The notes: a model not told the origin generated them from the sequence alone. Positions 47,015 through 64,000 are shown, counted from the first letter of the stretch. The stretch: DNA of 64,000 nucleotides from Sphingobacteriia bacterium (GCA_015999745.1 JAECQP010000009.1:14025-78024), one strand, 5' to 3'. A program made the numbers and translations.

Positions 47015-47746
47015 TTAGAGGCTCATCATTTCTTTAAACTTCACGGTTTGTCTGCGACTCACTTCAATTTTTTCACCGCCTTTCAGGTCCAGCAATAACC
47101 CTCCGTTGAAATAGGGTTCTATCTTTTCGATCCAGCGAAGATTGATGATATGTTTTCTGTTAGCACGGAAAAACATCCGGTCGTCCAGCCTTTCTTCCAG
47201 TGCATTGAGCGATTTCAGGATCAGTGGTTTATTGGTTCCGAAAAATACTTTAGCATAATTACCCACGCTTTCAAAGAGGCGGATCTCACCCAGTTTTACA
47301 AACCAGCAACGCTCCCCGTCTTTAACGAATACCTGATCGTGCTCTGTTAAGGGCCCCCTGTTCACCCCCGTTAACCCGATACTCTCTTTGAAAATCTCCG
47401 CCTGCAGTTTCTGGATGGCTTCAGACAATCTTTTGGGTTCGATGGGTTTCAGTAAGTAATCCAGTGCATTCACTTCAAAAGCCTTGATGGCGTATTCATC
47501 GTATGCTGTGGTAAAAATTACTTTAGGCGCTTTCTCCACTTCTGCCAGCAGGTCGAACCCTGTTTTACCCGGCATCTGTATATCCAGAAAAATCAGGTCG
47601 GGATTCAATGTTTCAATCTTCTCTATTCCGTCGTCTACATTGGCCGCCTCTTCGATCACTTCAATATCACCATGGTCCTGCAGCAGCTTTTTCAATTCAT
47701 TGCGAGCCAATCGCTCATCATCAATAATAATTGCTTTGATAGCCAT
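47015..47746 (-). CDS. LytTR-family response regulator
   Basis: Receiver domain (IIIDDERLARNEL...DLIFLDIQMPGKTGF) plus C-terminal LytTR (FFRANRKHIINLRWIEKIE). Confidence 0.9.
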   Translation of the reverse strand: MAIKAIIIDDERLARNELKKLLQDHGDIEVIEEAANVDDGIEKIETLNPDLIFLDIQMPGKTGFDLLAEVEKAPKVIFTTAYDEYAIKAFEVNALDYLLKPIEPKRLSEAIQKLQAEIFKESIGLTGVNRGPLTEHDQVFVKDGERCWFVKLGEIRLFESVGNYAKVFFGTNKPLILKSLNALEERLDDRMFFRANRKHIINLRWIEKIEPYFNGGLLLDLKGGEKIEVSRRQTVKFKEMMSL

Positions 47747-47759
47747 ATGAAATCTGTAT

Positions 47760-48818
47760 TTAAGCTGAAGCCCGCACTTCCTGTACAGGCATTATAATTG
47801 TTGCTTCCACCATATTGTTTCCCTTGTCAACAATGCTGAAATGTGCTTTTGCGCCAAACAGCAGCTTCAATCTGTTCCGGGTACTGCTGATGCCAAATCC
47901 TTCTGAACCTTCAGACTGACTCAGGGTTCCTGTATTTTGAACAATCAACTCGTGATGATCATCTCTGAAATCAGAAATAATTTTAATCCTGCCTCCGCTC
48001 TTCTGTTTACTGATGCCATGTTTAATGGCATTTTCCACAAGGGTCTGCAACATCATCGGCGGTATCGGCTGATCCAGGGTATCTTCATCAATATCATATT
48101 CTACTGTTAACCTGTCCTCAAAACGGATAAACTCTAAGGCAAGATAATCTTTTACTATGTTCAGTTCTCTTTCAAATGGCACAGTTGTCATTTTTTCTGC
48201 CTGCATGCTGCTGCGCAGAATATTACTCAGTTCGGTAATGGCGGTACGGGCGCGCTCCGGATTCTCATCTACCAGGGCCCGGATGCTGTTGAGTGCATTA
48301 AAAATAAAATGCGGATTAATATGCGATTTGATGGTATTGAGCTCCAGTTCCTTTACCAGGCTCTCCAACTTTACCTTCTGGATCTCGGTCTTAGTGCCCA
48401 GCTCAATATAGTGCCAGAGATAGTAAATGGATGCCCATACCAGGATCAGTGGGGAATCGGAGACCAGGTTTACCAGGAACCGCTTTTCTACGGAAACCTT
48501 GGTTTTGGGATTATAGAGGTGAAGCCACTCGGCCACGGCGCTGTTGGTCAGGTTGAACAATACTACAATACCAAATAATACCACGTTAAACAGCCACCAT
48601 TTTTTATACAATGTAGGGGGCAGAAGGCCCAGCGTTTTGATCAGGGTCCTGAGCAGATGGGTGTAAAACAGGCCTGAGAGAATGATTACCAACAGTTTAG
48701 GGTAAAAAATGCTGTTGATCTTACTGTCGAAGACGAAGGCAAAAAATACCATGGTCAGGCCATAAAGCAGCCAGCCGCCTAAATGGCACCACCAGTACAA
48801 TACACTCTTGTTTCTCAT
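47760..48818 (-). CDS. Membrane sensor histidine kinase of the LytS/His_kinase (PF06580-like) type
   Basis: N-terminal TM bundle, then SHINPHFIFNALNSIRALV (H-box) and an HATPase region (LQTLVENAIKHG...GFGISSTRNRL). Start chosen at the ATG 48818 (MRNKSVLYWW); the track ORF extends to 48965. Confidence 0.85.
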   Translation of the reverse strand: MRNKSVLYWWCHLGGWLLYGLTMVFFAFVFDSKINSIFYPKLLVIILSGLFYTHLLRTLIKTLGLLPPTLYKKWWLFNVVLFGIVVLFNLTNSAVAEWLHLYNPKTKVSVEKRFLVNLVSDSPLILVWASIYYLWHYIELGTKTEIQKVKLESLVKELELNTIKSHINPHFIFNALNSIRALVDENPERARTAITELSNILRSSMQAEKMTTVPFERELNIVKDYLALEFIRFEDRLTVEYDIDEDTLDQPIPPMMLQTLVENAIKHGISKQKSGGRIKIISDFRDDHHELIVQNTGTLSQSEGSEGFGISSTRNRLKLLFGAKAHFSIVDKGNNMVEATIIMPVQEVRASA

Positions 48819-49003
48819 GCTTCCAAAGATAAAAAAAGCAAAACCGCTCCGGCCGGGTTTTGGGATTAATGGCAAATTCCGCCCCAATTCGGCACAAAAT
48901 AATGTTTTAAACTGCTGAACCATCCTTTTTATCGTATGTTCTACGGTTAAACGGGTGATTTTCAACCCCCAAAACCGTACTTTTACACTCTAAACAAGCA
49001 TGC

Positions 49004-53192: not shown

Positions 53193-54059
53193 GTGGGTGG
53201 TAAATTAGTGAACTGGCTTATTTTCCTAAGCCTTTGTTTGATCTGGGGCAGCTCTTTTATTCTGATGAAAAGTGGTATGAATACGCTGAGCCCATACCAG
53301 GTAGCGTCTATCCGCCTGATCAGCTCCGGGGTTGTACTGCTGCCCTTTGCGCTGAAAGCTTTCCGGGTAATTCCGGCGCTTAAAAGGGGGCCGGTGATCT
53401 TGTCCGGATTACTTGGCAGCTTTTTCCCCGCCTATCTGTTTTGTATTGCCGAAACCAAAATCGACAGCGCCCTGGCCGGGATCCTCAATGCACTCACTCC
53501 CTTATTTGTAATTATAACCGGCGTTGCATTTTTTCAGCTTAGGATTAACATGCAGCAATTGCTGGGAATGCTGATCGGCTTTATCGGGCTATGCCTGCTG
53601 GTGGCCGCCGGAAACAATATCAGTCTTGCCTATTTCGGCTATGCCCTGCTCGTTCTGCTGGCTACCCTTTTTTATGGGATCAACGTGAATGTAGTAGGCA
53701 AATACCTGCATGGAGTGGGGTCATTGGAAATTGCTTCCATGGCATTTGTGTTTCTGATTATCCCCTGTATGCTGATACTTTATTTCACCGGTTATTTTTC
53801 CCTGCCGCTGGGCAACAGCGCATATATCCAATCTACACTGGCATCTTCCGTATTGGGTATTTTTGGAACTGCAGTAGCTTCCACGCTTTTCTACATGCTG
53901 GTTAAAAGAGCGGGAACCCTGTTTGCATCCACAGTTACCTATGGAATCCCCTTTGTAGCCATTGGCTGGGGCATTTGGCACGGTGAACAGGTAAACCTGC
54001 TGCAGGTTTTATGTTTGGGAGTAATCTTGTGTGGCGTATACCTGGTGAATAAAAAATAA
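53193..54059 (+). CDS. DMT-superfamily (EamA-type) transporter
   Basis: 288 aa with about 10 TM segments in two EamA-like halves. The start is a GTG and is uncertain. Confidence 0.7.
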   Translation: MGGKLVNWLIFLSLCLIWGSSFILMKSGMNTLSPYQVASIRLISSGVVLLPFALKAFRVIPALKRGPVILSGLLGSFFPAYLFCIAETKIDSALAGILNALTPLFVIITGVAFFQLRINMQQLLGMLIGFIGLCLLVAAGNNISLAYFGYALLVLLATLFYGINVNVVGKYLHGVGSLEIASMAFVFLIIPCMLILYFTGYFSLPLGNSAYIQSTLASSVLGIFGTAVASTLFYMLVKRAGTLFASTVTYGIPFVAIGWGIWHGEQVNLLQVLCLGVILCGVYLVNKK

Positions 54060-54623
54060 CTACACCGACATCATTTCCTTTTCCTTGGCAGCGAGGTGCT
54101 TGTCTACCAGCAGGATAAATTTATCGGTCACTTCCTGAATTTCTTTCTCCGCATCTTTGGCTGCATCTTCACTCAGACCGTCTTTCTGCAGTTTTTTTAC
54201 CTGCTCTATGGCATCCCTTCGGATATTTCTGATGGCCACTTTAGACTGTTCGCCTTCACCACCCGCTTTTTTCACCAGTTCTCGTCTTCTTTCCTCTGTG
54301 AGCGGGGGCATGAACAACCTGATCTGAACACCGTCGTTCTGTGGGGTAACACCAATATTGGCAGCCATAATAGACCGCTCAATAGCCTGCACCATATTCT
54401 TTTCCCAGGGTTGTATACTGATGGTTCTTGCATCCAGTACCGTAATATTGGCAACCTGGCTGATCGGCGTTGGCGCTCCGTAATACTCAACCGTCAATCC
54501 TTCGAGCATGGAAGGGCTGGCTTTACCGGCACGGATTTTTACCAATTCGGCCTCCAGGTGCTGAATACCTTTCTGCATACTGTCTTTCGCATCTTCTAAT
54601 ATCAAATTCAAATCTTCGGTCAT
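54060..54623 (-). CDS. frr: Ribosome recycling factor
   Basis: HLEAELVKIRAGKASPSMLEGLTVEYYGAPTPISQVANI...PPLTEERRRELVK...IRNIRRDA. Confidence 0.95.
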   Translation of the reverse strand: MTEDLNLILEDAKDSMQKGIQHLEAELVKIRAGKASPSMLEGLTVEYYGAPTPISQVANITVLDARTISIQPWEKNMVQAIERSIMAANIGVTPQNDGVQIRLFMPPLTEERRRELVKKAGGEGEQSKVAIRNIRRDAIEQVKKLQKDGLSEDAAKDAEKEIQEVTDKFILLVDKHLAAKEKEMMSV

Positions 54624-57464: not shown

Positions 57465-57527
57465 ATTCTACCTTTTATTGGGTGTAAAATTACTTACTTT
57501 GTGCTGTTTTCACCATTTAATTCCATT

Positions 57528-59357
57528 ATGAAGCGATTTGAGCGGATTTTGTTCTACCTGAGCAACCAGAAAAGGAATATTGTACTGTACTTCGTTTTTA
57601 ACCTGTTGTCCATTCTGTTCTCCCTGGTTTCCCTGGCCATGCTCTCCCCCATTCTCAAATTGCTGTTTACCGAATCGAGGGAAGAAATTACCCGGCCGGA
57701 GATCACCCTTTCTGTAGAGGGGCTGAAAAACCTGGCCGTTTATTTCAAATACTATTTTAACAACCTGATTGCAGAAAAAGGAGCCATCTATGCATTGGGT
57801 ACGATCTGCGTGATCATCATCATCGCTATTTTTCTGAAAAACCTGTTCACCTATTTATCTTACAGGGTACTGGCCCCCATGCGAAACTATGTGATGACCA
57901 AACTACGCTCCGACCTTTATGCAAAGATCCTGGAACTCCCCATCGGTTTTTTTACCGAACAGAAAAAGGGCGATATCATTAGCCGGATGAGCAATGATGC
58001 CAATGAGATCGAATGGAGCGTAATGAGTACACTGGAAGGCCTGATCAAAGACCCGATGCAGATCCTGGTTATCCTGGGCGTACTCATTTATATCAGCCCG
58101 TTGCTTTCCTTGTTCCTGCTGGTTTTATTGCCACTCACCGGGTTTATCATCGGAAGAATCAGCCGCTCCCTCAAGAAGCAATCCACCGAATCCGCGGAAG
58201 AGCTGGGCACCCTGATGTCTATCCTGGACGAAACATTGGGCGGACTGAGGGTCATTAAGGCATTCAACGCAGAAACCATGCTGCGCAACCGTTTCTTCAA
58301 CACCAACGATAAGCTGAACCATATCCGCAATAAAATGACTTTCCGCAGAGACCTTGCATCTCCCATGTCGGAATTCATGGGAGTAATGGTGCTGAGCTGT
58401 ATTCTCTGGTTTGGCGGGCAACTGGTACTGGGGCATGAGGCGGGATTACAAGGCGATAGCTTCATCAGTTATATCCTGATCTTTACCCAGATCATCAACC
58501 CGGCAAAGTCGCTCTCTACAGCATTCTACAACTCACAGCGGGGAACCGCTGCCATCAAACGGATTGAAGAAATCCTTCAGGCACCGCTGACGGTAACCGA
58601 TCTGCCCGATGCCAAACAGATCACCCGTTTTGAAAATCGAATTGAGTTGAGGAATGTTAGCTTCTCTTACGATGATGTACCCATCCTGAAAAATATTAAC
58701 CTGGTGATTGAGAAGGGAAAAACCATTGCACTGGTTGGTTCCTCCGGTGCGGGCAAAAGCAGCCTGGCAGACCTGGTTCCCCGCTTCCACGATGTTAGTT
58801 CCGGCGAGATCCTGATTGATGGCATCAATATCAAGGAATATACTTTAAACAGTGTCCGTTCCCTGATGGGTATTGTAACGCAGGAACCCATCCTCTTTAA
58901 TGACAGCATTGCCAACAATATTGCACTGGGCAGCGACCACAGGGATATTGCTTCCATCGAAAAGGCAGCAACGGTAGCAAACGCAATTGGCTTTATCCGG
59001 CAAAAGGAAGAAGGCTTCGATACCAATATCGGCGATCGCGGATCCAAGCTCAGCGGTGGTGAGCGCCAGCGCCTCACCATTGCCAGGGCTGTGTTTAAAA
59101 ACCCTCCCATCCTGATCCTGGACGAAGCCACTTCATCGCTCGATACCGAGAGCGAAAGACTGGTACAGGATGCCATTAACAATATGATGCAGCACAGAAC
59201 CTCCATTGTGATTGCACACCGCCTGAGCACCATTCGCCATGCGGATGAAATCATCGTAATGCAGAAAGGTGAAATTGCCGAACGGGGCACCCACGACAGC
59301 CTGCTGGCCCAAAACGGTATCTACCGTAAACTGGTGGAGATGCAGGAAGTGAAATAA
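57528..59357 (+). CDS. ABC exporter, fused TMD-NBD half-transporter (MsbA-like)
   Basis: Six-TM domain, then Walker A GSSGAGKSS, signature LSGGERQR and Walker B ILILDEATS. Start at the ATG 57528 (MKRFERIL). Confidence 0.85.
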   Translation: MKRFERILFYLSNQKRNIVLYFVFNLLSILFSLVSLAMLSPILKLLFTESREEITRPEITLSVEGLKNLAVYFKYYFNNLIAEKGAIYALGTICVIIIIAIFLKNLFTYLSYRVLAPMRNYVMTKLRSDLYAKILELPIGFFTEQKKGDIISRMSNDANEIEWSVMSTLEGLIKDPMQILVILGVLIYISPLLSLFLLVLLPLTGFIIGRISRSLKKQSTESAEELGTLMSILDETLGGLRVIKAFNAETMLRNRFFNTNDKLNHIRNKMTFRRDLASPMSEFMGVMVLSCILWFGGQLVLGHEAGLQGDSFISYILIFTQIINPAKSLSTAFYNSQRGTAAIKRIEEILQAPLTVTDLPDAKQITRFENRIELRNVSFSYDDVPILKNINLVIEKGKTIALVGSSGAGKSSLADLVPRFHDVSSGEILIDGINIKEYTLNSVRSLMGIVTQEPILFNDSIANNIALGSDHRDIASIEKAATVANAIGFIRQKEEGFDTNIGDRGSKLSGGERQRLTIARAVFKNPPILILDEATSSLDTESERLVQDAINNMMQHRTSIVIAHRLSTIRHADEIIVMQKGEIAERGTHDSLLAQNGIYRKLVEMQEVK

Positions 59358-59731
59358 TTTAAGTTTTGTTGACTGAGTTCATGATAGTTTAAGTGTGTCG
59401 GGTTAACGCTGTTTGTTATTGTTGCATCGTAGTAGCTTTTAGTAGTTCAAAAGTACCCTGTTCCAGCCGCTTGTAATAAATGGCAAAACCATCTTTTCAT
59501 AAAGTAATTTTAGTATGGAATAATTTTATATAACTAGGTTTCAAATAATGTTGCTGCCAACATCAGCAGACTATTGGCTTACTCAAACACAAGATCGTCA
59601 TCAAGTGTAGAACCGTTGAGCTATCCTTTTGGGTTCAATGCAAAAGAATTTAATGAAAATATCTGTTTTTAACAGAGCAATAAAATTTAGGGATGGAGTG
59701 ATTTTACCTCTACTAGAGAATATTAACATAA

Positions 59732-61087
59732 TCACCTCCTCCATAGCCCTCTCCATTGATACAATAGCCGATCAGCTAGAGAAGCATTTTCTGTAATGAT
59801 CTCAGCTATGCCAGATAAATTGTTGCTAAATAAAACTTGTCTTCTATAATTTGTAATTAAGCCGTTTGGTAATTCTACCTTGATTAAAAATGCTGTATCT
59901 CTATATGGCACAGCTGGTATGTTAGTAATAATTCCATCGAGTATGCCAAACTCATTGCGCTGATAACTGTTGAGTGCAATATGCACTTCTTGCCCTTTGC
60001 TGATTTTTCCAAAGTTTTGTTGCGATGCCAATACTTCCGCAAAATAACTAGGCTGAGCAGGGATGATGTAAAACAATTCCTGCCCTACTTTGATCCAACT
60101 ATTGGTTTGATAATAACTCACCATTTGTAACTTACCTGTTTCTGAAGCGATGATCATATAACGGTTCTTCCATTCGGTGATGGCTGTTTTAGCATTTAGC
60201 AAAGCAGTGATAAAATTCTGCTGTATATCATTAGCAGTTTTAGCAATCTCTATTAATTCTTTTTGTTTTGAGATTGCACTGTTGTTTTGATTGATTGTGC
60301 TCGCATCTACCTGAACCAATTGCTGCTGCTTGGCAATAACGGCAGATTTGTCCTTGTTTATATCGAGTGGGGCTATTACTTTTTCTTTTACCAATCCTTC
60401 ATTTACTGCAAGTAAATGATGCTGCATCTGTAGATCTTGCTCTATAAGTTGCTTTTGCGTTTGAGCATTTTGATTGAGTGCTTGGATGGTGTTTAATTCC
60501 TTTGCTATGGTTTGCTTCTTTTGTTCAAAATATCCTTTGGGTGTAGACCACCCTAGTTGATAGGCCTGTTGGCTTATATCTTGATAATTTTTTTGTATAT
60601 CACCTAAAGTATTAAGTACTGGAAGTGTTTGTACATTACTCCACAATGCATTGGTTGAAGCATTCTTGGAAGTTGTTAGATTCTTTAACTGTACTTCTAT
60701 CCATTTGTCTAAAATCAATATTTGTTTATAATCTGCACTACTTTGTATAATTCCTAATACCGCTCCCTCTTTAATTTGATCGTTATCCTTTACAAACAAT
60801 GCAACCAGTTTGCCTTCCGATTTACTCAATACCTGTTTGGGTAAATTATTACCAACTATTCTTACAGGTGCTTTGATGATATCAGGGTATTGAATAAAAA
60901 AGCTTCCAGTAAACAATAATACAATGATGATAAAGAATAATGCAATGCCATTGCGTACCATCCATGCAGGTCTAGTACTTATGATCTCTCTTACCTCGCT
61001 ACTATATATGCGATCAGCCTCATCCAATCTTTCTACATTGGCTGCTTGTAGCATATCATCTAAACTATAGCTTTGATCTGTAGGCAT
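59732..61087 (-). CDS. HlyD-family membrane-fusion (secretion adaptor) protein
   Basis: A single N-terminal TM (GIALFFIIIVLLFTGSFFI), a long Q/L-rich coiled-coil middle and a C-terminal beta-domain. It lies 15 nt downstream of the C39-ABC gene. Confidence 0.75.
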   Translation of the reverse strand: MPTDQSYSLDDMLQAANVERLDEADRIYSSEVREIISTRPAWMVRNGIALFFIIIVLLFTGSFFIQYPDIIKAPVRIVGNNLPKQVLSKSEGKLVALFVKDNDQIKEGAVLGIIQSSADYKQILILDKWIEVQLKNLTTSKNASTNALWSNVQTLPVLNTLGDIQKNYQDISQQAYQLGWSTPKGYFEQKKQTIAKELNTIQALNQNAQTQKQLIEQDLQMQHHLLAVNEGLVKEKVIAPLDINKDKSAVIAKQQQLVQVDASTINQNNSAISKQKELIEIAKTANDIQQNFITALLNAKTAITEWKNRYMIIASETGKLQMVSYYQTNSWIKVGQELFYIIPAQPSYFAEVLASQQNFGKISKGQEVHIALNSYQRNEFGILDGIITNIPAVPYRDTAFLIKVELPNGLITNYRRQVLFSNNLSGIAEIITENASLADRLLYQWRGLWRR

Positions 61088-61102
61088 ATTTTTTATTATT
61101 AT

Positions 61103-63382
61103 CTAATCACCAAGTTCTAATTGATTTTTAACCAAGGTAAAATATTCACCCTTCAAGGCGGCTAACTCAGCATGGGTTCCGCTTTCTACAATAGCTCCAT
61201 TGTGCAGCACCACTATTTGATCTGCATGTTTTACCGTACTTAATCGGTGCGCTACTACTACCACTGTTTTGCCCTCAAAGAAAGTTTGCAGGTTTTTAAT
61301 GATGGTGCTCTCATTGTTGGCATCCAGTGCATTGGTGGCTTCGTCTAGTAAAATCATGTTGGGGTTCTTGTACACAGCCCTTGCAATGAGTATTCGTTGC
61401 TTTTGACCAGCACTCACCCCTGTACCTTCTGCTCCTATCTTGGTATTATAGCCTAGTGGCAGGCTTTCTATAAAAGGGGTGATGTTTGCAATGCTTGCCG
61501 CATACCTTAATCTTTCTCTATCAGGAAAGTCTTCTCCAACTGCAATATTCTTCGCTATACTGTCCGAGAAAATAAAACTATCCTGCATCACTACCCCCGC
61601 TTGTTTGCGCCATGCCCTATGGCTGATAGCATTTAAGTTGAGGCCATTTGATTCTAGGCTGTCGCCTATATAAATATCCCCTTTTATAGGGTCGTAAAAC
61701 TTGAGTAGTAATTTTAGTAAAGTGGTCTTGCCACTGCCACTTGAACCCACTATAGCTGTAACCTTACCTTGGGGTATTACCATATTGATGTTCTTTAGCA
61801 CTGGTTCATTGCCTGCACCAGGATAAGTAAAACTAATCTGTTGTAAATGTATAGTTCTGTTTTGAGGGAGTTCGCTGGTTAAGGTTTGATGGATTTTTTT
61901 ATTATCGTCCAAAACTATTGGTTCTTCATCAGCCAATTGGTTGATCTCGTTCAAACGCTCTAAGCTGATCTTGGCGAGTTGCCAGTTTTGAACAAAGCCA
62001 ATCATCTGTTCTATGGGAGCATTGAGTTGACCAATGATATACTGTATGGCAAGCATTGCACCCAGGGTTATCTGTCCCTGTATTACCGCAGTTGCAGCAA
62101 TAAACGTGATTACAATATTTTTACCTTCATTGATAAAAAAAGCTCCTGCTTGTTGCCATTGGTTAAGCGATAATCCTTTCATGCCCAGCTTAAACAATTT
62201 TGCTTGCAAATGCTCCCATTGCCAGCGTTGTTGTTTTTCGCTGCCATGCAGTTTAATTTCTTGCATGCCTTGCACCAATTGAATGGTGCTGCTCTGTTCG
62301 GCAGCAGCCACATCAAATTGTTGGTAGTCGAGTTGCTTTCTTTTTTGTAAGAACAAAATAATCCATCCGATATACACCACACTAGCTCCTATAAATACAC
62401 CAAAAATTGTGACATTATAATTAAGCAGAACAATAGAAAAAACCAATAAATTAAATAAAGAGAAAAGTGTACTGAGCGATGTGCCTGTTAAAAAGCTTTG
62501 GATTCGCTTATGGTCGTTCATTCTTTGCAGGATATCCCCTGTTTTTTTGCTATCAAAATAAGCCAAGGGTAAACGCATCAATTTGATTAAAAAACCAGTA
62601 AGGATCGTGATATTAATCCTGCTGCTGATATGGTAGAGTATCCAACTGCGAATGAACTCTACACTAAGCCTTCCTATAAACAAAGCGAGTTGTGCAAAGA
62701 GAACTATATAAACAAACTGCAGGTTTTGGGTATTGATACCTACGTCCACCACACTCTGCGTTAAAAAAGGAAAGACAAGTTGCAATAAACTACCGAGCAC
62801 CACACCCAGGAACAATTGAAAAACCAATTTTTTGTGGGGACGGATATAACTCAATAATTGACTGGCGTGCTTAGTGGTCTGTTGGTCAAAATCTGCTCCA
62901 TAGGCATTATTGTAAAAATTAGGACCAGGCTCAAGTAATAATGCAATACCTGTTGGTTCACCATCTGTGTTTTTATCGCTGATCCATTTTTGAAAAAACA
63001 ATTCTTTGCTGATGGTTATAATACCCTTTGCAGGATCTGCAATCGTAATTTTGCTTTGTTGATGTTTATTGAATAAAAAACCGAAATGAGCTTTTTTTTG
63101 AGGCGGTAATACAATAAAATGATTTTGTCCCCAATGAAGAATGGCTGGCTTAGGAGAATCAACCATTAATTTATTAAAGCTCAATTTTAAAGCTGTTGTT
63201 TGAAAACCGATTTGCTCGGCGGCATCACTGATACCTAGCATGTTCACCCCCTCTTTACCAATCTCAGTTAATTGCCTTAACTTCTCCAACCCAAAGACCC
63301 TACCATGATACCTGCTCACCATGTACAAGCAAGTTGGCCCACAGTCCATCGCATTTAACTGATATGTAAAAGAAAATTTCAA
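61103..63382 (-). CDS. Peptidase-C39-domain ABC transporter (bacteriocin/RiPP leader-cleaving exporter)
   Basis: The N-terminal QLNAMDCGPTCLYMV (catalytic Cys) and WGQNHFIVL (His) indicate C39. It also has a 6-TM domain, Walker A GSSGSGKTT, signature VSAGQKQR and Walker B MILLDEATNALD. Confidence 0.9.
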   Translation of the reverse strand: MKFSFTYQLNAMDCGPTCLYMVSRYHGRVFGLEKLRQLTEIGKEGVNMLGISDAAEQIGFQTTALKLSFNKLMVDSPKPAILHWGQNHFIVLPPQKKAHFGFLFNKHQQSKITIADPAKGIITISKELFFQKWISDKNTDGEPTGIALLLEPGPNFYNNAYGADFDQQTTKHASQLLSYIRPHKKLVFQLFLGVVLGSLLQLVFPFLTQSVVDVGINTQNLQFVYIVLFAQLALFIGRLSVEFIRSWILYHISSRINITILTGFLIKLMRLPLAYFDSKKTGDILQRMNDHKRIQSFLTGTSLSTLFSLFNLLVFSIVLLNYNVTIFGVFIGASVVYIGWIILFLQKRKQLDYQQFDVAAAEQSSTIQLVQGMQEIKLHGSEKQQRWQWEHLQAKLFKLGMKGLSLNQWQQAGAFFINEGKNIVITFIAATAVIQGQITLGAMLAIQYIIGQLNAPIEQMIGFVQNWQLAKISLERLNEINQLADEEPIVLDDNKKIHQTLTSELPQNRTIHLQQISFTYPGAGNEPVLKNINMVIPQGKVTAIVGSSGSGKTTLLKLLLKFYDPIKGDIYIGDSLESNGLNLNAISHRAWRKQAGVVMQDSFIFSDSIAKNIAVGEDFPDRERLRYAASIANITPFIESLPLGYNTKIGAEGTGVSAGQKQRILIARAVYKNPNMILLDEATNALDANNESTIIKNLQTFFEGKTVVVVAHRLSTVKHADQIVVLHNGAIVESGTHAELAALKGEYFTLVKNQLELGD

Positions 63383-63383
63383 A

Positions 63384-64000
63384 TTATAGATTTGTTTCCG
63401 TTTTTAAGCTTTCAAAATAAAATAACTTATCCTTTGCTATTATTGAAGAATAATACTTTTCAAGAAAATGATATATTACTAATTCATATGATCTTTGCTT
63501 TCCTAGAAAAAGCCTGTTAATAAACATATGCACATAGCTTTGCAATAAAATAGAAATATCAAGGTAATTACTATTTAAATTAAGTTTTGAATAGATAGAA
63601 TTAACTATTTCCTTGTTTGAATGAGAGCGGTTGTTAAAAATAGATACCGCTTCCTCTATTTCATTCAATGTGTCCTGAGAACTATCCATATGAGAGAATA
63701 TTAATTTTTGATATTGTCTATACTTTTCGTTTAACTGCTTTTGAAGTAAGGGAGAAGAGCCAAATTCTTTAAAATAATTTTGTTGCATTAATTTTGCATT
63801 TCTTTGTTTTTCAGATAAGCTTAAATTAAAATCATTAAAAAGCATATCAATTCCACGTAGAGAAAACAATATTTTGTATTTCGAACTATCATTTCCTTCC
63901 AAAAGTTTTAAAAATCTAAGTACTGCAATACTATCATTGAAAAATAAAGATTCGGCTTCCTCGATAAGAGAATCTCCATATCTATTTATTTCCCGATTAT
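63384..64000 (-). CDS. C-terminal part of a LanB-type / SpaB_C-like ('thiopeptide-type bacteriocin biosynthesis') domain protein; ORF is open to the window edge
   Basis: The track ORF begins at a TTG (63902), but my translation shows the frame stays open to position 64000: NREINRYGDSLIEEAESLFFNDSIAVLRFLKLLEGNDSS... The later ...LLQSYVHMFINRLFLGKQRSYELVIYHFLEKYY fits the RE..RYG / E.lF..DS / HM..NRl arrangement I recall from Lant_dehydr_C domains. Confidence 0.55.
   Translation of the reverse strand, partial: NREINRYGDSLIEEAESLFFNDSIAVLRFLKLLEGNDSSKYKILFSLRGIDMLFNDFNLSLSEKQRNAKLMQQNYFKEFGSSPLLQKQLNEKYRQYQKLIFSHMDSSQDTLNEIEEAVSIFNNRSHSNKEIVNSIYSKLNLNSNYLDISILLQSYVHMFINRLFLGKQRSYELVIYHFLEKYYSSIIAKDKLFYFESLKTETNL

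What the first reader, a model, noticed from the sequence alone, without database searches (positions are those of the whole stretch)
59732..64000. Edge of an AT-rich RiPP (lanthipeptide/LanB-type) maturation and export cluster
Three co-directional minus-strand genes are separated by only 1 and 15 nt.
- Gene 1 is still open at position 64000. Its readable ~205 residues contain ...REINRYGDSLIEEAESLFFNDS... and ...QSYVHMFINRLF.... I recognise this as the layout of the SpaB_C / Lant_dehydr_C glutamate-elimination domain of LanB-type dehydratases.
- Gene 2 is an ABC exporter with an intact N-terminal C39 peptidase (Cys in DCGPTCL, His in NHFIVL). This implies a double-glycine-type leader on the substrate.
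- Gene 3 is an HlyD adaptor.

By eye this block is roughly one-third G+C, against about one-half in the flanking housekeeping genes, which suggests horizontal acquisition. Bacteroidota class I lanthipeptide clusters (the pinensin type in Chitinophaga, and Pedobacter examples) share this LanB(-split)/LanC plus C39-ABC plus HlyD architecture, and very few products are characterised. Precursor peptide(s), the glutamylation domain and any cyclase must lie beyond the window, so the product is undefined and potentially new.
Basis: partly seen in the sequence, partly recalled or inferred. Interest (0 to 1): 0.75.

Follow-up and report, generated by a model that had tools for sequence, protein, structure and literature searches.

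The report
Lanthipeptide gene island edge, Sediminibacterium
The window ends inside a horizontally acquired, apparently functional gene cluster for a ring-containing antimicrobial-type peptide (class I lanthipeptide) in a freshwater Bacteroidota bacterium; the cluster is of a known kind, but its peptide is uncharacterised and it carries two little-studied extras, an S41 protease and a structured RNA leader.

Summary
Window 59732-64000 (minus strand) holds the last 204 codons of a LanB dehydratase (PF14028, E 5.5e-34), a C39-peptidase ABC exporter and an HlyD adaptor, separated by 1 and 15 nt. G+C is 36% against 46% in the flank.

Contigs from strain-level relatives supply the missing 7.6 kb. 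In order they carry:
- a truncated IS4 transposase;
- an 80-aa LanA with a Bacteroidota class I leader ending in GG;
- a conserved hairpin;
- a 750-aa S41 lipoprotein protease;
- LanC;
- a full-length, unsplit LanB of 1038 aa.

All genes are intact and under purifying selection.

The island starts at window 59361. A close Sediminibacterium relative has an empty site there. Two strains that differ by 2.5% in the flank differ by 1 nt in the island.

The LanT-HlyD cassette also serves a disulfide-peptide locus elsewhere (88% nt identity), so the cluster is a mosaic.

The core peptide family has only four representatives in 1.84 billion.

I also found a ~150-nt structured RNA leader that is not in Rfam. 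It lies upstream of the GG-leader peptide genes, and a degenerate copy sits in the window at 59509-59653.

Verdict: a new member of a known kind, of moderate interest.

The parts
63384..64000 (-). 3' end of lanB: the last 204 codons plus the stop codon. This is the C-terminal glutamate-elimination domain, and the ORF runs off the window.
   Evidence: PF14028 at E 5.5e-34 and TIGR03891 at 110 bits. It is identical to residues 835-1038 of the 1038-aa LanB on L001, which has PF04738 plus PF14028. REINRYG lies at 63975-63995 and HMFINR at 63513-63530.
61103..63382 (-). lanT: a C39 peptidase-containing ABC exporter of 759 aa with a TTG start 1 nt after the lanB stop.
   Evidence: PF03412, PF00664 and PF00005 are all above cut-off. 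Residues Q8, C14, H88 and D116 are present, with Walker A at 546-553 and Walker B at 678-683. dN/dS is 0.04.
59732..61087 (-). hlyD-type periplasmic adaptor, 451 aa, with one N-terminal transmembrane helix.
   Evidence: PF13437 at 37.9 bits against a cut-off of 22.2, and TIGR01843 at E 6e-22 but below its cut-off. dN/dS is 0.17 against the L032 copy.
59509..59653 (-). Degenerate copy of a ~150-nt structured RNA leader that precedes GG-leader peptide genes in related loci. Here it is orphaned.
   Evidence: Covariance model R1 scores 78.1 bits, E about 1e-19 to 5e-22. Helices P1, P3 and the pseudoknot arms are kept, the inner hairpin of P4 is shortened, and P5 is broken.
59447..59500 (-). 17-codon ORF (MKRWFCHLLQAAGTGYF) at the position where the intact loci have a GG-leader peptide gene. 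It is probably a relic.
   Evidence: Read from the sequence. No minus-strand ORF of 20 aa or more lies between 59358 and 59508. In L032 an 86-aa GG peptide gene occupies the same position.
59361..59731 (.). Non-coding terminal stretch of the island. The junction with the core genome is at 59360/59361, 3 nt after the stop of the msbA-like gene.
   Evidence: Synteny with the empty-site relative L038 (89-90% nt identity) runs from window 39005 to 59360 and stops there. The last strain polymorphism is at 59261, and G+C drops between 59300 and 59400.

Best explanation
**What it is.** Window 59361-64000 is the 3' third of a horizontally acquired class I lanthipeptide biosynthesis and export island of at least 12.6 kb, in a Sediminibacterium (Chitinophagaceae) genome.

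**Gene order.** Read along the minus strand of the window, the full order is:
1. the 3' end of a thioredoxin-like gene;
2. an RNA leader;
3. a truncated IS4 transposase;
4. an RNA leader;
5. lanA (80 aa);
6. a hairpin;
7. an S41 lipoprotein protease;
8. lanC;
9. lanB;
10. lanT;
11. hlyD;
12. a degenerate RNA leader.

**Mechanism.** The steps below are inferred from the well-established class I pathway. The genes and their catalytic motifs are shown here; the chemistry is not.
- LanB glutamylates Ser/Thr residues of the LanA core using glutamyl-tRNA(Glu). Its C-terminal domain, the part in the window, eliminates glutamate to give dehydro-residues.
- LanC uses zinc to add Cys thiols. It probably forms four consecutive rings in the conserved N-terminal 22 residues: S2-C6, T8-C12, T13-C17 and T19-C22.
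- The C39 domain of LanT cuts after the Gly-Gly at residue 32. LanT-HlyD, together with an unlinked outer-membrane channel, exports the peptide.
- The hairpin after lanA probably sets the ratio of precursor transcript to enzyme transcript.
- The S41 lipoprotein most likely cleaves the variable, unringed C-terminal tail of the exported peptide. Whether this activates the peptide (maturation) or protects the cell (as the nisin-resistance S41 protease NSR does) is open.
For: - **Domains.** Pfam and NCBIfam hits for all genes are above the cut-offs.
- **Missing half.** It was recovered on L001, L003 and L029, which are identical to the window's island but for 1 nt. The same proteins occur in one NCBI MAG, split over two contigs.
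- **Catalytic residues (alignments).** LanB has R69/R73/T75, D110, R786, E837/R840 and H991. LanC has H183, C248 and C298-H299.
- **Selection.** dN/dS is 0.04-0.34 for every gene.
- **Architecture.** It is conserved in three precursor variants and in seven more distant Chitinophagaceae and Sphingobacteriaceae loci.
- **Leader.** The LanA leader passes NF038153 at 26.8 bits against a cut-off of 22. It fits the LxLxKx5L...GG motif of Bacteroidota class I LanAs (PMC7268733).
- **Core.** The N-terminal 22 residues of the core are nearly invariant and the tail is variable.
- **Island status.** Empty site, polymorphism contrast and G+C.
- **Hairpin.** It keeps 17 pairs, 5 of them with compensatory changes.
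- **S41.** Pfam hit. The AlphaFold model has pLDDT 84, and its best matches are a Bacteroides S41 protease, CPAF and Ctp structures. S660 and H422 are invariant. It has a lipoprotein-like N-terminus.
Against: - No chemistry or expression data exist.
- The upstream two thirds of the cluster were read from other strains' contigs, not from the window itself.
- No outer-membrane factor and no LanI/LanFEG-type immunity genes are in the island.
- The ring pattern is a guess from residue spacing.
- The role of S41 is inferred only from its position, its conservation and the NSR precedent. NSR itself was not among the top 50 fold matches.
- S41 homologues at about 42% identity are often unlinked to lanthipeptide genes.
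- NCBIfam equivalog and subfamily cut-offs for LanT and HlyD are not reached.
Confidence: 0.9

Rival explanations
1. The locus is only a generic double-glycine bacteriocin exporter (LanT-HlyD), and the LanB-like fragment is incidental or a pseudogene.
For: An 88%-identical LanT-HlyD cassette serves a Cys-rich, non-lanthipeptide GG-peptide locus that has VKOR/thioredoxin genes and no LanBC (L032). The synonymous divergence of lanT is 5-8 times that of lanB between the same loci, so the exporter has a separate history.
Against: The partial ORF is a strong PF14028 match. It continues into an intact 1038-aa LanB on contigs with an identical island. The 1-nt lanB-lanT spacing suggests translational coupling. 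LanA and LanC are present. lanB has dN/dS 0.17-0.22.
Confidence: 0.03
2. The cluster is a recently acquired but silent or decaying relic that makes no product.
For: The island shows several signs of decay or rearrangement:
- a truncated IS4 transposase (matching positions 4-265 of 332 in NF033592);
- an orphaned, degenerate RNA leader with a 17-codon relic ORF;
- in L014, a relative that has lost lanA and lanCB and kept only S41 plus a stub of about 50 nt of lanC;
- in L013, C39 pseudogene fragments upstream of lanA.
Against: All six genes are intact in more than ten independent metagenome contigs. Catalytic residues are kept. dN/dS is 0.04-0.34. The near-identity of the island across strains that differ by 2.5% in the flank suggests recent spread rather than decay.
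Confidence: 0.06
3. The LanB-type dehydratase belongs to another RiPP class, such as a thiopeptide or a PEARL-type pathway, rather than to a lanthipeptide pathway.
For: The best NCBIfam hit for the C-terminal domain is TIGR03891, 'thiopeptide-type bacteriocin biosynthesis'. The best PDB sequence match, 9g04, carries the same name.
Against: The cluster has a full-length LanB with both domains, an adjacent LanC with its zinc ligands, and a LanA that passes the class I lanthipeptide leader model. No YcaO, cyclodehydratase or [4+2] enzyme genes are present in the island.
Confidence: 0.01

Closest known systems
Bacteroidota class I lanthipeptide clusters with an LxLxKx5L...GG leader and a C39-ABC transporter. 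These are described by Walker et al. 2020 (PMC7268733). Worked examples are the Pedobacter lusitanus PedA peptides and the Chryseobacterium ChmABC and Runella RuiABC clusters (PMC9993889, PMC12328550).
   Same: LanB plus LanC. A GG-terminated leader that matches NCBIfam NF038153. A bifunctional C39-ABC exporter in place of a LanP protease. An HlyD adaptor. Seven related loci in Chitinophagaceae, Mucilaginibacter and Pedobacter share the LanC-LanB-LanT-HlyD order, with 41-50% LanB identity.
   Different: The core peptide is unrelated to any other. Only four representatives in 1.84 billion share the [VI]SNWMCDT..C motif, and the other hits match the leader only. An S41 protease gene sits between lanA and lanC, an arrangement seen in only 2 of the 8 other clusters examined.
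Pinensin cluster of Chitinophaga pinensis (Mohr et al. 2015; family I_17 in PMC7268733).
   Same: A class I lanthipeptide cluster from the family Chitinophagaceae.
   Different: Here LanB is one 1038-aa ORF.
Nisin-type class I pathway (NisABTCIP) and the nisin resistance protein NSR, an S41 protease (PMC4828448).
   Same: The same LanB and LanC chemistry, with the catalytic residue pattern conserved. The numbering comes from my memory of NisB and NisC. There is a hairpin after the structural gene. An S41-family protease is associated with a lanthipeptide.
   Different: The leader is removed by the transporter's C39 domain, not by a subtilisin LanP. This is a Gram-negative host with an HlyD adaptor. 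There are no LanI/LanFEG genes. The S41 protein is encoded inside the producer cluster, is 750 aa with an N-terminal beta-sandwich domain, and its closest structural matches are a Bacteroides protease and CPAF rather than NSR.
Bacteroidetocin-type loci: GG-leader, Cys-containing peptides with a thiol oxidoreductase (PMC6671954).
   Same: The LanT-HlyD cassette (88% nt identity) and the RNA leader upstream of the peptide genes are shared with L032- and L035-type loci, which encode Cys-rich GG peptides together with VKOR/thioredoxin or TlpA-like proteins.
   Different: Those loci lack LanB and LanC. Here the lanthipeptide module (lanA-S41-lanC-lanB) sits on the same chassis.

Membership tests
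Class I lanthipeptide biosynthetic cluster | LanB dehydratase with an N-terminal glutamylation domain (PF04738) and a C-terminal elimination domain (PF14028) | tested here: met
   In the window, PF14028 scores E 5.5e-34. On L001, whose island is identical but for 1 nt, PF04738 scores 421 bits and PF14028 scores 217 bits in one 1038-aa ORF.
Class I lanthipeptide biosynthetic cluster | Stand-alone LanC cyclase with Cys-Cys-His zinc ligands | tested here: met
   PF05147 at E 4.9e-36. The WCYG (C248) and CHG (C298-H299) motifs and H183 are present. The gene lies outside the window, on L001.
Class I lanthipeptide biosynthetic cluster | Precursor with a recognised leader and a Ser/Thr/Cys-rich core | tested here: met
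   NF038153 lant_leader_L1a scores 26.8 bits against a cut-off of 22. The 48-aa core has 5 Cys and 10 Ser/Thr.
Class I lanthipeptide biosynthetic cluster | Product contains (methyl)lanthionine rings | not testable with these tools
   This needs mass spectrometry or NMR of the peptide.
Bacteroidota GG-leader subtype of class I (Walker et al. 2020) | LxLxKx5L leader motif ending in Gly-Gly, with a C39 protease in the cluster | tested here: met
   The leader contains LQFLKEKVVDL, with F in place of the second L, and ends ...VNGG. The C39-ABC exporter is adjacent. The motif definition is taken from PMC7268733.
Pinensin-type arrangement | LanB split into two ORFs | tested here: not met
   LanB is a single 1038-aa ORF in all loci.
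Peptidase-containing ABC transporter (bacteriocin cleavage/export) | An N-terminal C39 domain with Gln, Cys, His and Asp, followed by a transmembrane domain and a nucleotide-binding domain | tested here: met
   PF03412 scores 94.5 bits, PF00664 117.6 and PF00005 103.8, all above cut-off. Q8, C14, H88, D116 and Walker A and B are present. The NCBIfam models TIGR01193 and TIGR03796 match strongly but fall below their trusted cut-offs.
HlyD/membrane-fusion adaptor | HlyD-family domains and an N-terminal membrane anchor | tested here: met
   PF13437 scores 37.9 bits against a cut-off of 22.2. A hydrophobic helix spans residues 48-65. TIGR01843 scores 78 bits, below its cut-off of 208.
S41A C-terminal processing peptidases (Ser/Lys dyad) | A catalytic Ser and a Lys about 25 residues downstream (the TFGKG motif) | tested here: not met
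   The Ser aligns (TQS660QAE), but the Lys position is Ala within QTAGADGD. An invariant His422 is present instead. The fold matches CPAF and a Bacteroides S41 protease. The protein is therefore a member of family S41 (PF03572 at 38.4 bits against a cut-off of 24), of the Ser-His type.
NSR-like lantibiotic resistance protease | Cleaves the C-terminal tail of a lanthipeptide and confers resistance | not testable with these tools
   This is an analogy only. NSR was not among the top 50 structural matches.
Any Rfam family (for the RNA leader) | A score at or above the family's gathering threshold | tested here: not met
   There are no gathering-level matches in the window. The best sub-threshold match is RAGATH-7 at 28.6 bits against 111.8, at one copy only.

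The most novel reading that the evidence does not exclude
The ~150-nt element found directly upstream of lanA and of unrelated GG-leader, Cys-rich peptide genes is a new class of structured cis-acting RNA leader. A degenerate copy sits in the window at 59509-59653. The element has five helices plus a pseudoknot. It travels with a swappable chassis made of promoter-leader, GG-peptide gene and LanT-HlyD, and it controls precursor expression or mRNA stability in Chitinophagaceae bacteriocin and lanthipeptide loci. On this chassis, the in-cluster S41 lipoprotein would be a dedicated protease that cuts the lanthipeptide tail.
Probability: 0.35. Interest if true: 0.6.

Novelty: new member of a known kind. 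Interest (0 to 1): 0.42.

Why it matters

- **New scaffold.** This island gives a complete, apparently active cluster. Its core peptide has almost no relatives, and its conserved four-ring N-terminal module is a candidate new scaffold.
- **Evolution.** The locus shows how such clusters are assembled. A modification module (lanA-S41-lanC-lanB) sits on an export chassis that is shared with disulfide-peptide loci, and the whole has moved recently between strains.
- **Two testable leads.** One is an in-cluster S41 protease that may trim or destroy the peptide tail. The other is a conserved structured RNA leader, which could be a handle for activating silent clusters.

Tried and rejected
- **Genome scan.** A scan of genome contigs with a LanB alignment found no genome of the same species. 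It returned only relatives at 41-50% identity.
- **NCBI contig.** The 40-kb NCBI MAG contig that carries lanA, S41 and lanC could not be retrieved. The far junction of the island therefore remains unknown.
- **Promoter scan.** The sigma-70 promoter scan was at chance level, 56 found against 54.7 expected, and this consensus is not suited to Bacteroidota.
- **Rfam.** There are no gathering-level hits in the window. The weak RAGATH-7 match of 28.6 bits occurs at one copy only and overlaps the hairpin at the end of the IS. I treat it as chance.
- **Metagenome scan.** A scan with a 21-base core of the RNA motif gave only one further locus, so the motif's distribution looks narrow.
- **S41 as a Ser/Lys Ctp.** Rejected, because the Lys is absent.
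- **S41 as a general marker of lanthipeptide clusters.** Rejected, because two homologues at about 42% identity have unrelated neighbours.
- **Literature.** The Bothwell et al. 2021 paper on Pedobacter (PMC9845027) is not held. No paper in the library links peptidase S41 to Bacteroidota lanthipeptide clusters.
- **Single-sequence fold.** The fold of the leader alone is only marginal, with a z-score of -1.65. The support for a structure comes from covariation, not from folding energy.

Full report
**1. The observation**

On the minus strand, the frame 63384-63998 is open to the window edge and carries the quoted motifs. It matches Pfam PF14028 (Lant_dehydr_C) at E 5.5e-34, 118.9 bits against a cut-off of 24.4. 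It also matches TIGR03891 at 110 bits.

One nucleotide after its stop codon, a TTG opens a 759-aa protein with Peptidase_C39, ABC_membrane and ABC_tran domains, all above cut-off. This protein has the oxyanion Gln8, Cys14, His88 and Asp116, and intact Walker motifs.

Fifteen nucleotides further on lies a 451-aa HlyD-type adaptor (PF13437).

G+C is 0.364 for 59732-64000 against 0.463 for the rest of the window.

**2. The rest of the cluster**

An exact-protein look-up of the exporter returned the metagenome contig L001. L001 is 98.4% identical to the window over 12.9 kb and extends 7.6 kb beyond position 64000. In order it carries:
- a truncated IS4 transposase;
- an 80-aa ORF;
- a 750-aa S41 peptidase;
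- a 389-aa LanC;
- a single 1038-aa LanB with PF04738 (421 bits) and PF14028 (217 bits);
- then lanT and hlyD.

The 80-aa ORF passes NCBIfam's class I lanthipeptide leader model NF038153, at 26.8 bits against a cut-off of 22.

The window's HlyD, a closely related exporter in the same 90%-identity cluster, and a partial 876-aa LanB are deposited for one 'Sphingobacteriia bacterium' MAG on an 80-kb contig. LanA (mis-named a class IIb bacteriocin) and LanC (named 'hypothetical') lie on a 40-kb contig of what appears to be the same MAG. The cluster is therefore already in GenBank with automatic names, split across two contigs.

**3. Integrity**

LanB keeps the following residues:
- the R-x3-R-x-T pattern (R69, R73, T75) and D110 of the glutamylation domain;
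- R786, E837/R840 (in REINRYG) and H991 (in HMFINR) of the elimination domain.

The last two motifs lie inside the window. The correspondence to NisB R83/R87/T89, D121, R786, E823/R826 and H961 comes from my memory of the NisB literature. It was not tested against a NisB sequence.

LanC keeps H183, C248 (WCYG) and C298-H299 (CHG).

Between the three precursor variants, every gene has dN/dS between 0.04 and 0.34. More than ten independent contigs carry intact copies.

**4. The precursor and the likely product**

The leader is MKKIKLESKKLQFLKEKVVDLSNEELKSVNGG. It fits the LxLxKx5L...GG motif that Walker et al. report for Bacteroidota class I LanAs with a C39 protease in the cluster (PMC7268733).

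The 48-aa core is VSNWMCDTWAECTMGACVTQAC-GPGPVFLPTLPTLTGSVNCNTFTREV. It has five Cys and ten Ser/Thr.

Across the four known variants, the first 22 residues are nearly invariant, whereas the tail differs in length, sequence and Cys content. The residue spacing suggests four consecutive rings: S2-C6, T8-C12, T13-C17 and T19-C22. This is an inference.

An exhaustive phmmer search of 1.84 billion representative proteins found only four proteins that share this core. All the other hits share only the leader. The core is therefore a small, uncharacterised family.

**5. A recently acquired, mosaic island**

- **Host.** The host is a Sediminibacterium. Its DXS protein is 97% identical to those of Sediminibacterium MAGs and 89-90% identical to those of named isolates.
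- **Empty site.** In one such close relative (L038, GCA_035254545.1), synteny at 89-90% nt identity runs from window 39005 to 59360, which is 3 nt past the stop of the msbA-like gene. It is then followed by a terminator, a gene for a DksA/TraR-type zinc-finger protein, and ileS. There is no island.
- **Polymorphism.** Two strain lineages that both carry the island differ at 204 positions in 8.3 kb of flank (2.5%). They differ at only 1 position across the roughly 4.6 kb of island inside the window. The switch occurs at 59261, where G+C also falls.
- **Mosaic structure.** lanT and hlyD have 36-40% G+C, against 28-29% for S41, lanC and lanB. Between L001 and L011, lanT has dS 1.3 whereas lanB has dS 0.15.
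- **Shared cassette.** An 88%-identical lanT-hlyD cassette in another MAG (L032) serves a locus with two Cys-rich GG-leader peptides, a C39-VKOR-thioredoxin protein and an AhpC-like protein, and has no LanBC. That locus is of the general bacteroidetocin kind (PMC6671954).

Upstream of the IS4 remnant lies the 3' end of a thioredoxin-like gene. The simplest reading is that a lanA-S41-lanC-lanB module was inserted into a pre-existing export chassis for disulfide peptides.

**6. The S41 protease**

It sits between lanA and lanC in all three precursor variants. It has a lipoprotein-like signal sequence.

It matches PF03572 and lacks the Lys of the Ser/Lys dyad. Ser660 and His422 are invariant across 42 homologues.

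The AlphaFold model has a mean pLDDT of 84. Its best structural matches are a Bacteroides S41 protease (4GHN), CPAF and Ctp enzymes.

Homologues fall into two groups. One group, at 77-100% identity, is linked to this cluster type, apart from the orphan copy in L014 described below. The other is a broad Bacteroidota family at about 40% identity. Among the members of the broad family whose neighbourhoods I examined:
- one flanks another lanthipeptide cluster (L015);
- two do not;
- a homologue at 24% identity lies between lanC and lanB in L021.

In L014, an 86%-identical S41 survives next to a response regulator, with a stub of about 50 nt of lanC. lanA and lanCB are gone.

I propose that S41 cleaves the variable tail of the exported peptide. 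Tail variability favours a trimming role. The orphan copy and the NSR precedent (PMC4828448) favour a protective role. I cannot decide between the two.

**7. RNA elements**

*Hairpin after lanA.* A 17-bp hairpin follows lanA (L001 1536-1574). It is kept in the three variants, with 5 compensatory pairs. It probably acts as an attenuator or stabiliser, as in other lantibiotic operons. That comparison rests on established knowledge and was not tested here.

*Leader upstream of the peptide genes.* The ~150 nt immediately upstream of lanA are 74-77% identical to the regions upstream of both GG-peptide genes in L032 and of a GG-peptide gene in L035.
- A model with five helices plus a pseudoknot has 97.7% of cells paired and 7 covarying pairs in six sequences.
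- After a covariance-model search added two independent copies, 94% of cells are paired and 12 pairs covary. None of 500 shuffles reaches these values, and slid controls pair at 34-50%.
- One new copy lies between the thioredoxin-like gene and the IS4 remnant (L003 179-326).
- The other is inside the window at 59509-59653, minus strand, at 78 bits. It is degenerate and is followed only by a 17-codon ORF.
- Rfam has no match at its gathering thresholds.

*Caveats.* There are only eight sequences. The alignment was fitted to the model. Transcription has not been shown.

**8. Comparison and verdict**

This is a bona fide Bacteroidota-type class I lanthipeptide cluster with an unsplit LanB, so it is not the pinensin arrangement. 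The kind is known and NCBI's own models recognise its parts. The peptide itself is new and uncharacterised.

I rate it a new member of a known kind. The moderate interest comes from the clean evidence for recent modular transfer, the in-cluster S41 protease and the candidate RNA leader.

Noticed in passing
window 59509-59653 (-); also L001 1077-1225, L003 179-326, L011 1136-1282, L013 2173-2319, L032 6055-6206 and 11652-11803, L035 1724-1872: A conserved ~150-nt structured leader lies immediately upstream of GG-leader peptide genes, both lanA and unrelated Cys-rich peptides. It has five helices plus a pseudoknot and 12 covarying pairs in 8 copies, and it is absent from Rfam. The window's copy is degenerate and has no peptide gene after it.
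   Followed up: partly
L001 1536-1574 (between lanA and the S41 gene): A perfect 17-bp hairpin followed by a T-rich stretch. It is conserved in L011 and L013 through 5 compensatory pair changes. It is probably an attenuator or stabiliser that sets the ratio of precursor to enzyme transcript.
   Followed up: partly
L032 7935-11589 (GCA_037129425.1): A LanT-HlyD cassette that is 88% identical in nucleotides (95% and 91% in amino acids) to the window's. It serves a locus with two Cys-rich GG peptides, a C39-VKOR-thioredoxin fusion protein and an AhpC-like protein, and has no LanBC. The export module is exchangeable between RiPP and bacteriocin types.
   Followed up: partly
L014 10001-12315 (GCA_965284095.1, 3.1-Mb contig): An orphan S41 gene, 86% identical in amino acids to the one in this cluster. 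It keeps a stub of about 50 nt of lanC downstream but has no lanA, lanC or lanB. It lies next to a LuxR-type response regulator and a divergent GG-bacteriocin/C39-ABC cluster.
   Followed up: partly
L013 983-1284: Frame-broken fragments of a second C39 (lanT-like) gene lie upstream of lanA. This is evidence of past rearrangement at these loci.
   Followed up: no
L015 2802-5181 and 10001-22289: A more distant lanthipeptide cluster (S41, LanC, LanB, a second LanC, two LanAs and a C39-ABC exporter). It lies beside relaxase, NikA-like and primase genes, so it may sit on a mobilisable element.
   Followed up: no
window 54000-54499 and 57500-57999: Strain polymorphism in the flank is uneven: 42 and 31 differences per 500 nt in these two bins, against 1-12 in most other bins. 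This may reflect local recombination tracts.
   Followed up: no
window 47015-48965 (-): A histidine kinase and LytTR response-regulator pair lies about 10 kb from the island. It is also present in the empty-site relative L038, so it belongs to the core genome and not to the island. LytTR regulators often control bacteriocin loci in other phyla.
   Followed up: no
L001 61-930: The IS4-family transposase ORF at the far end of the island matches only positions 4-265 of the 332-position model, so it is probably truncated. Most assemblies break at or near it.
   Followed up: no
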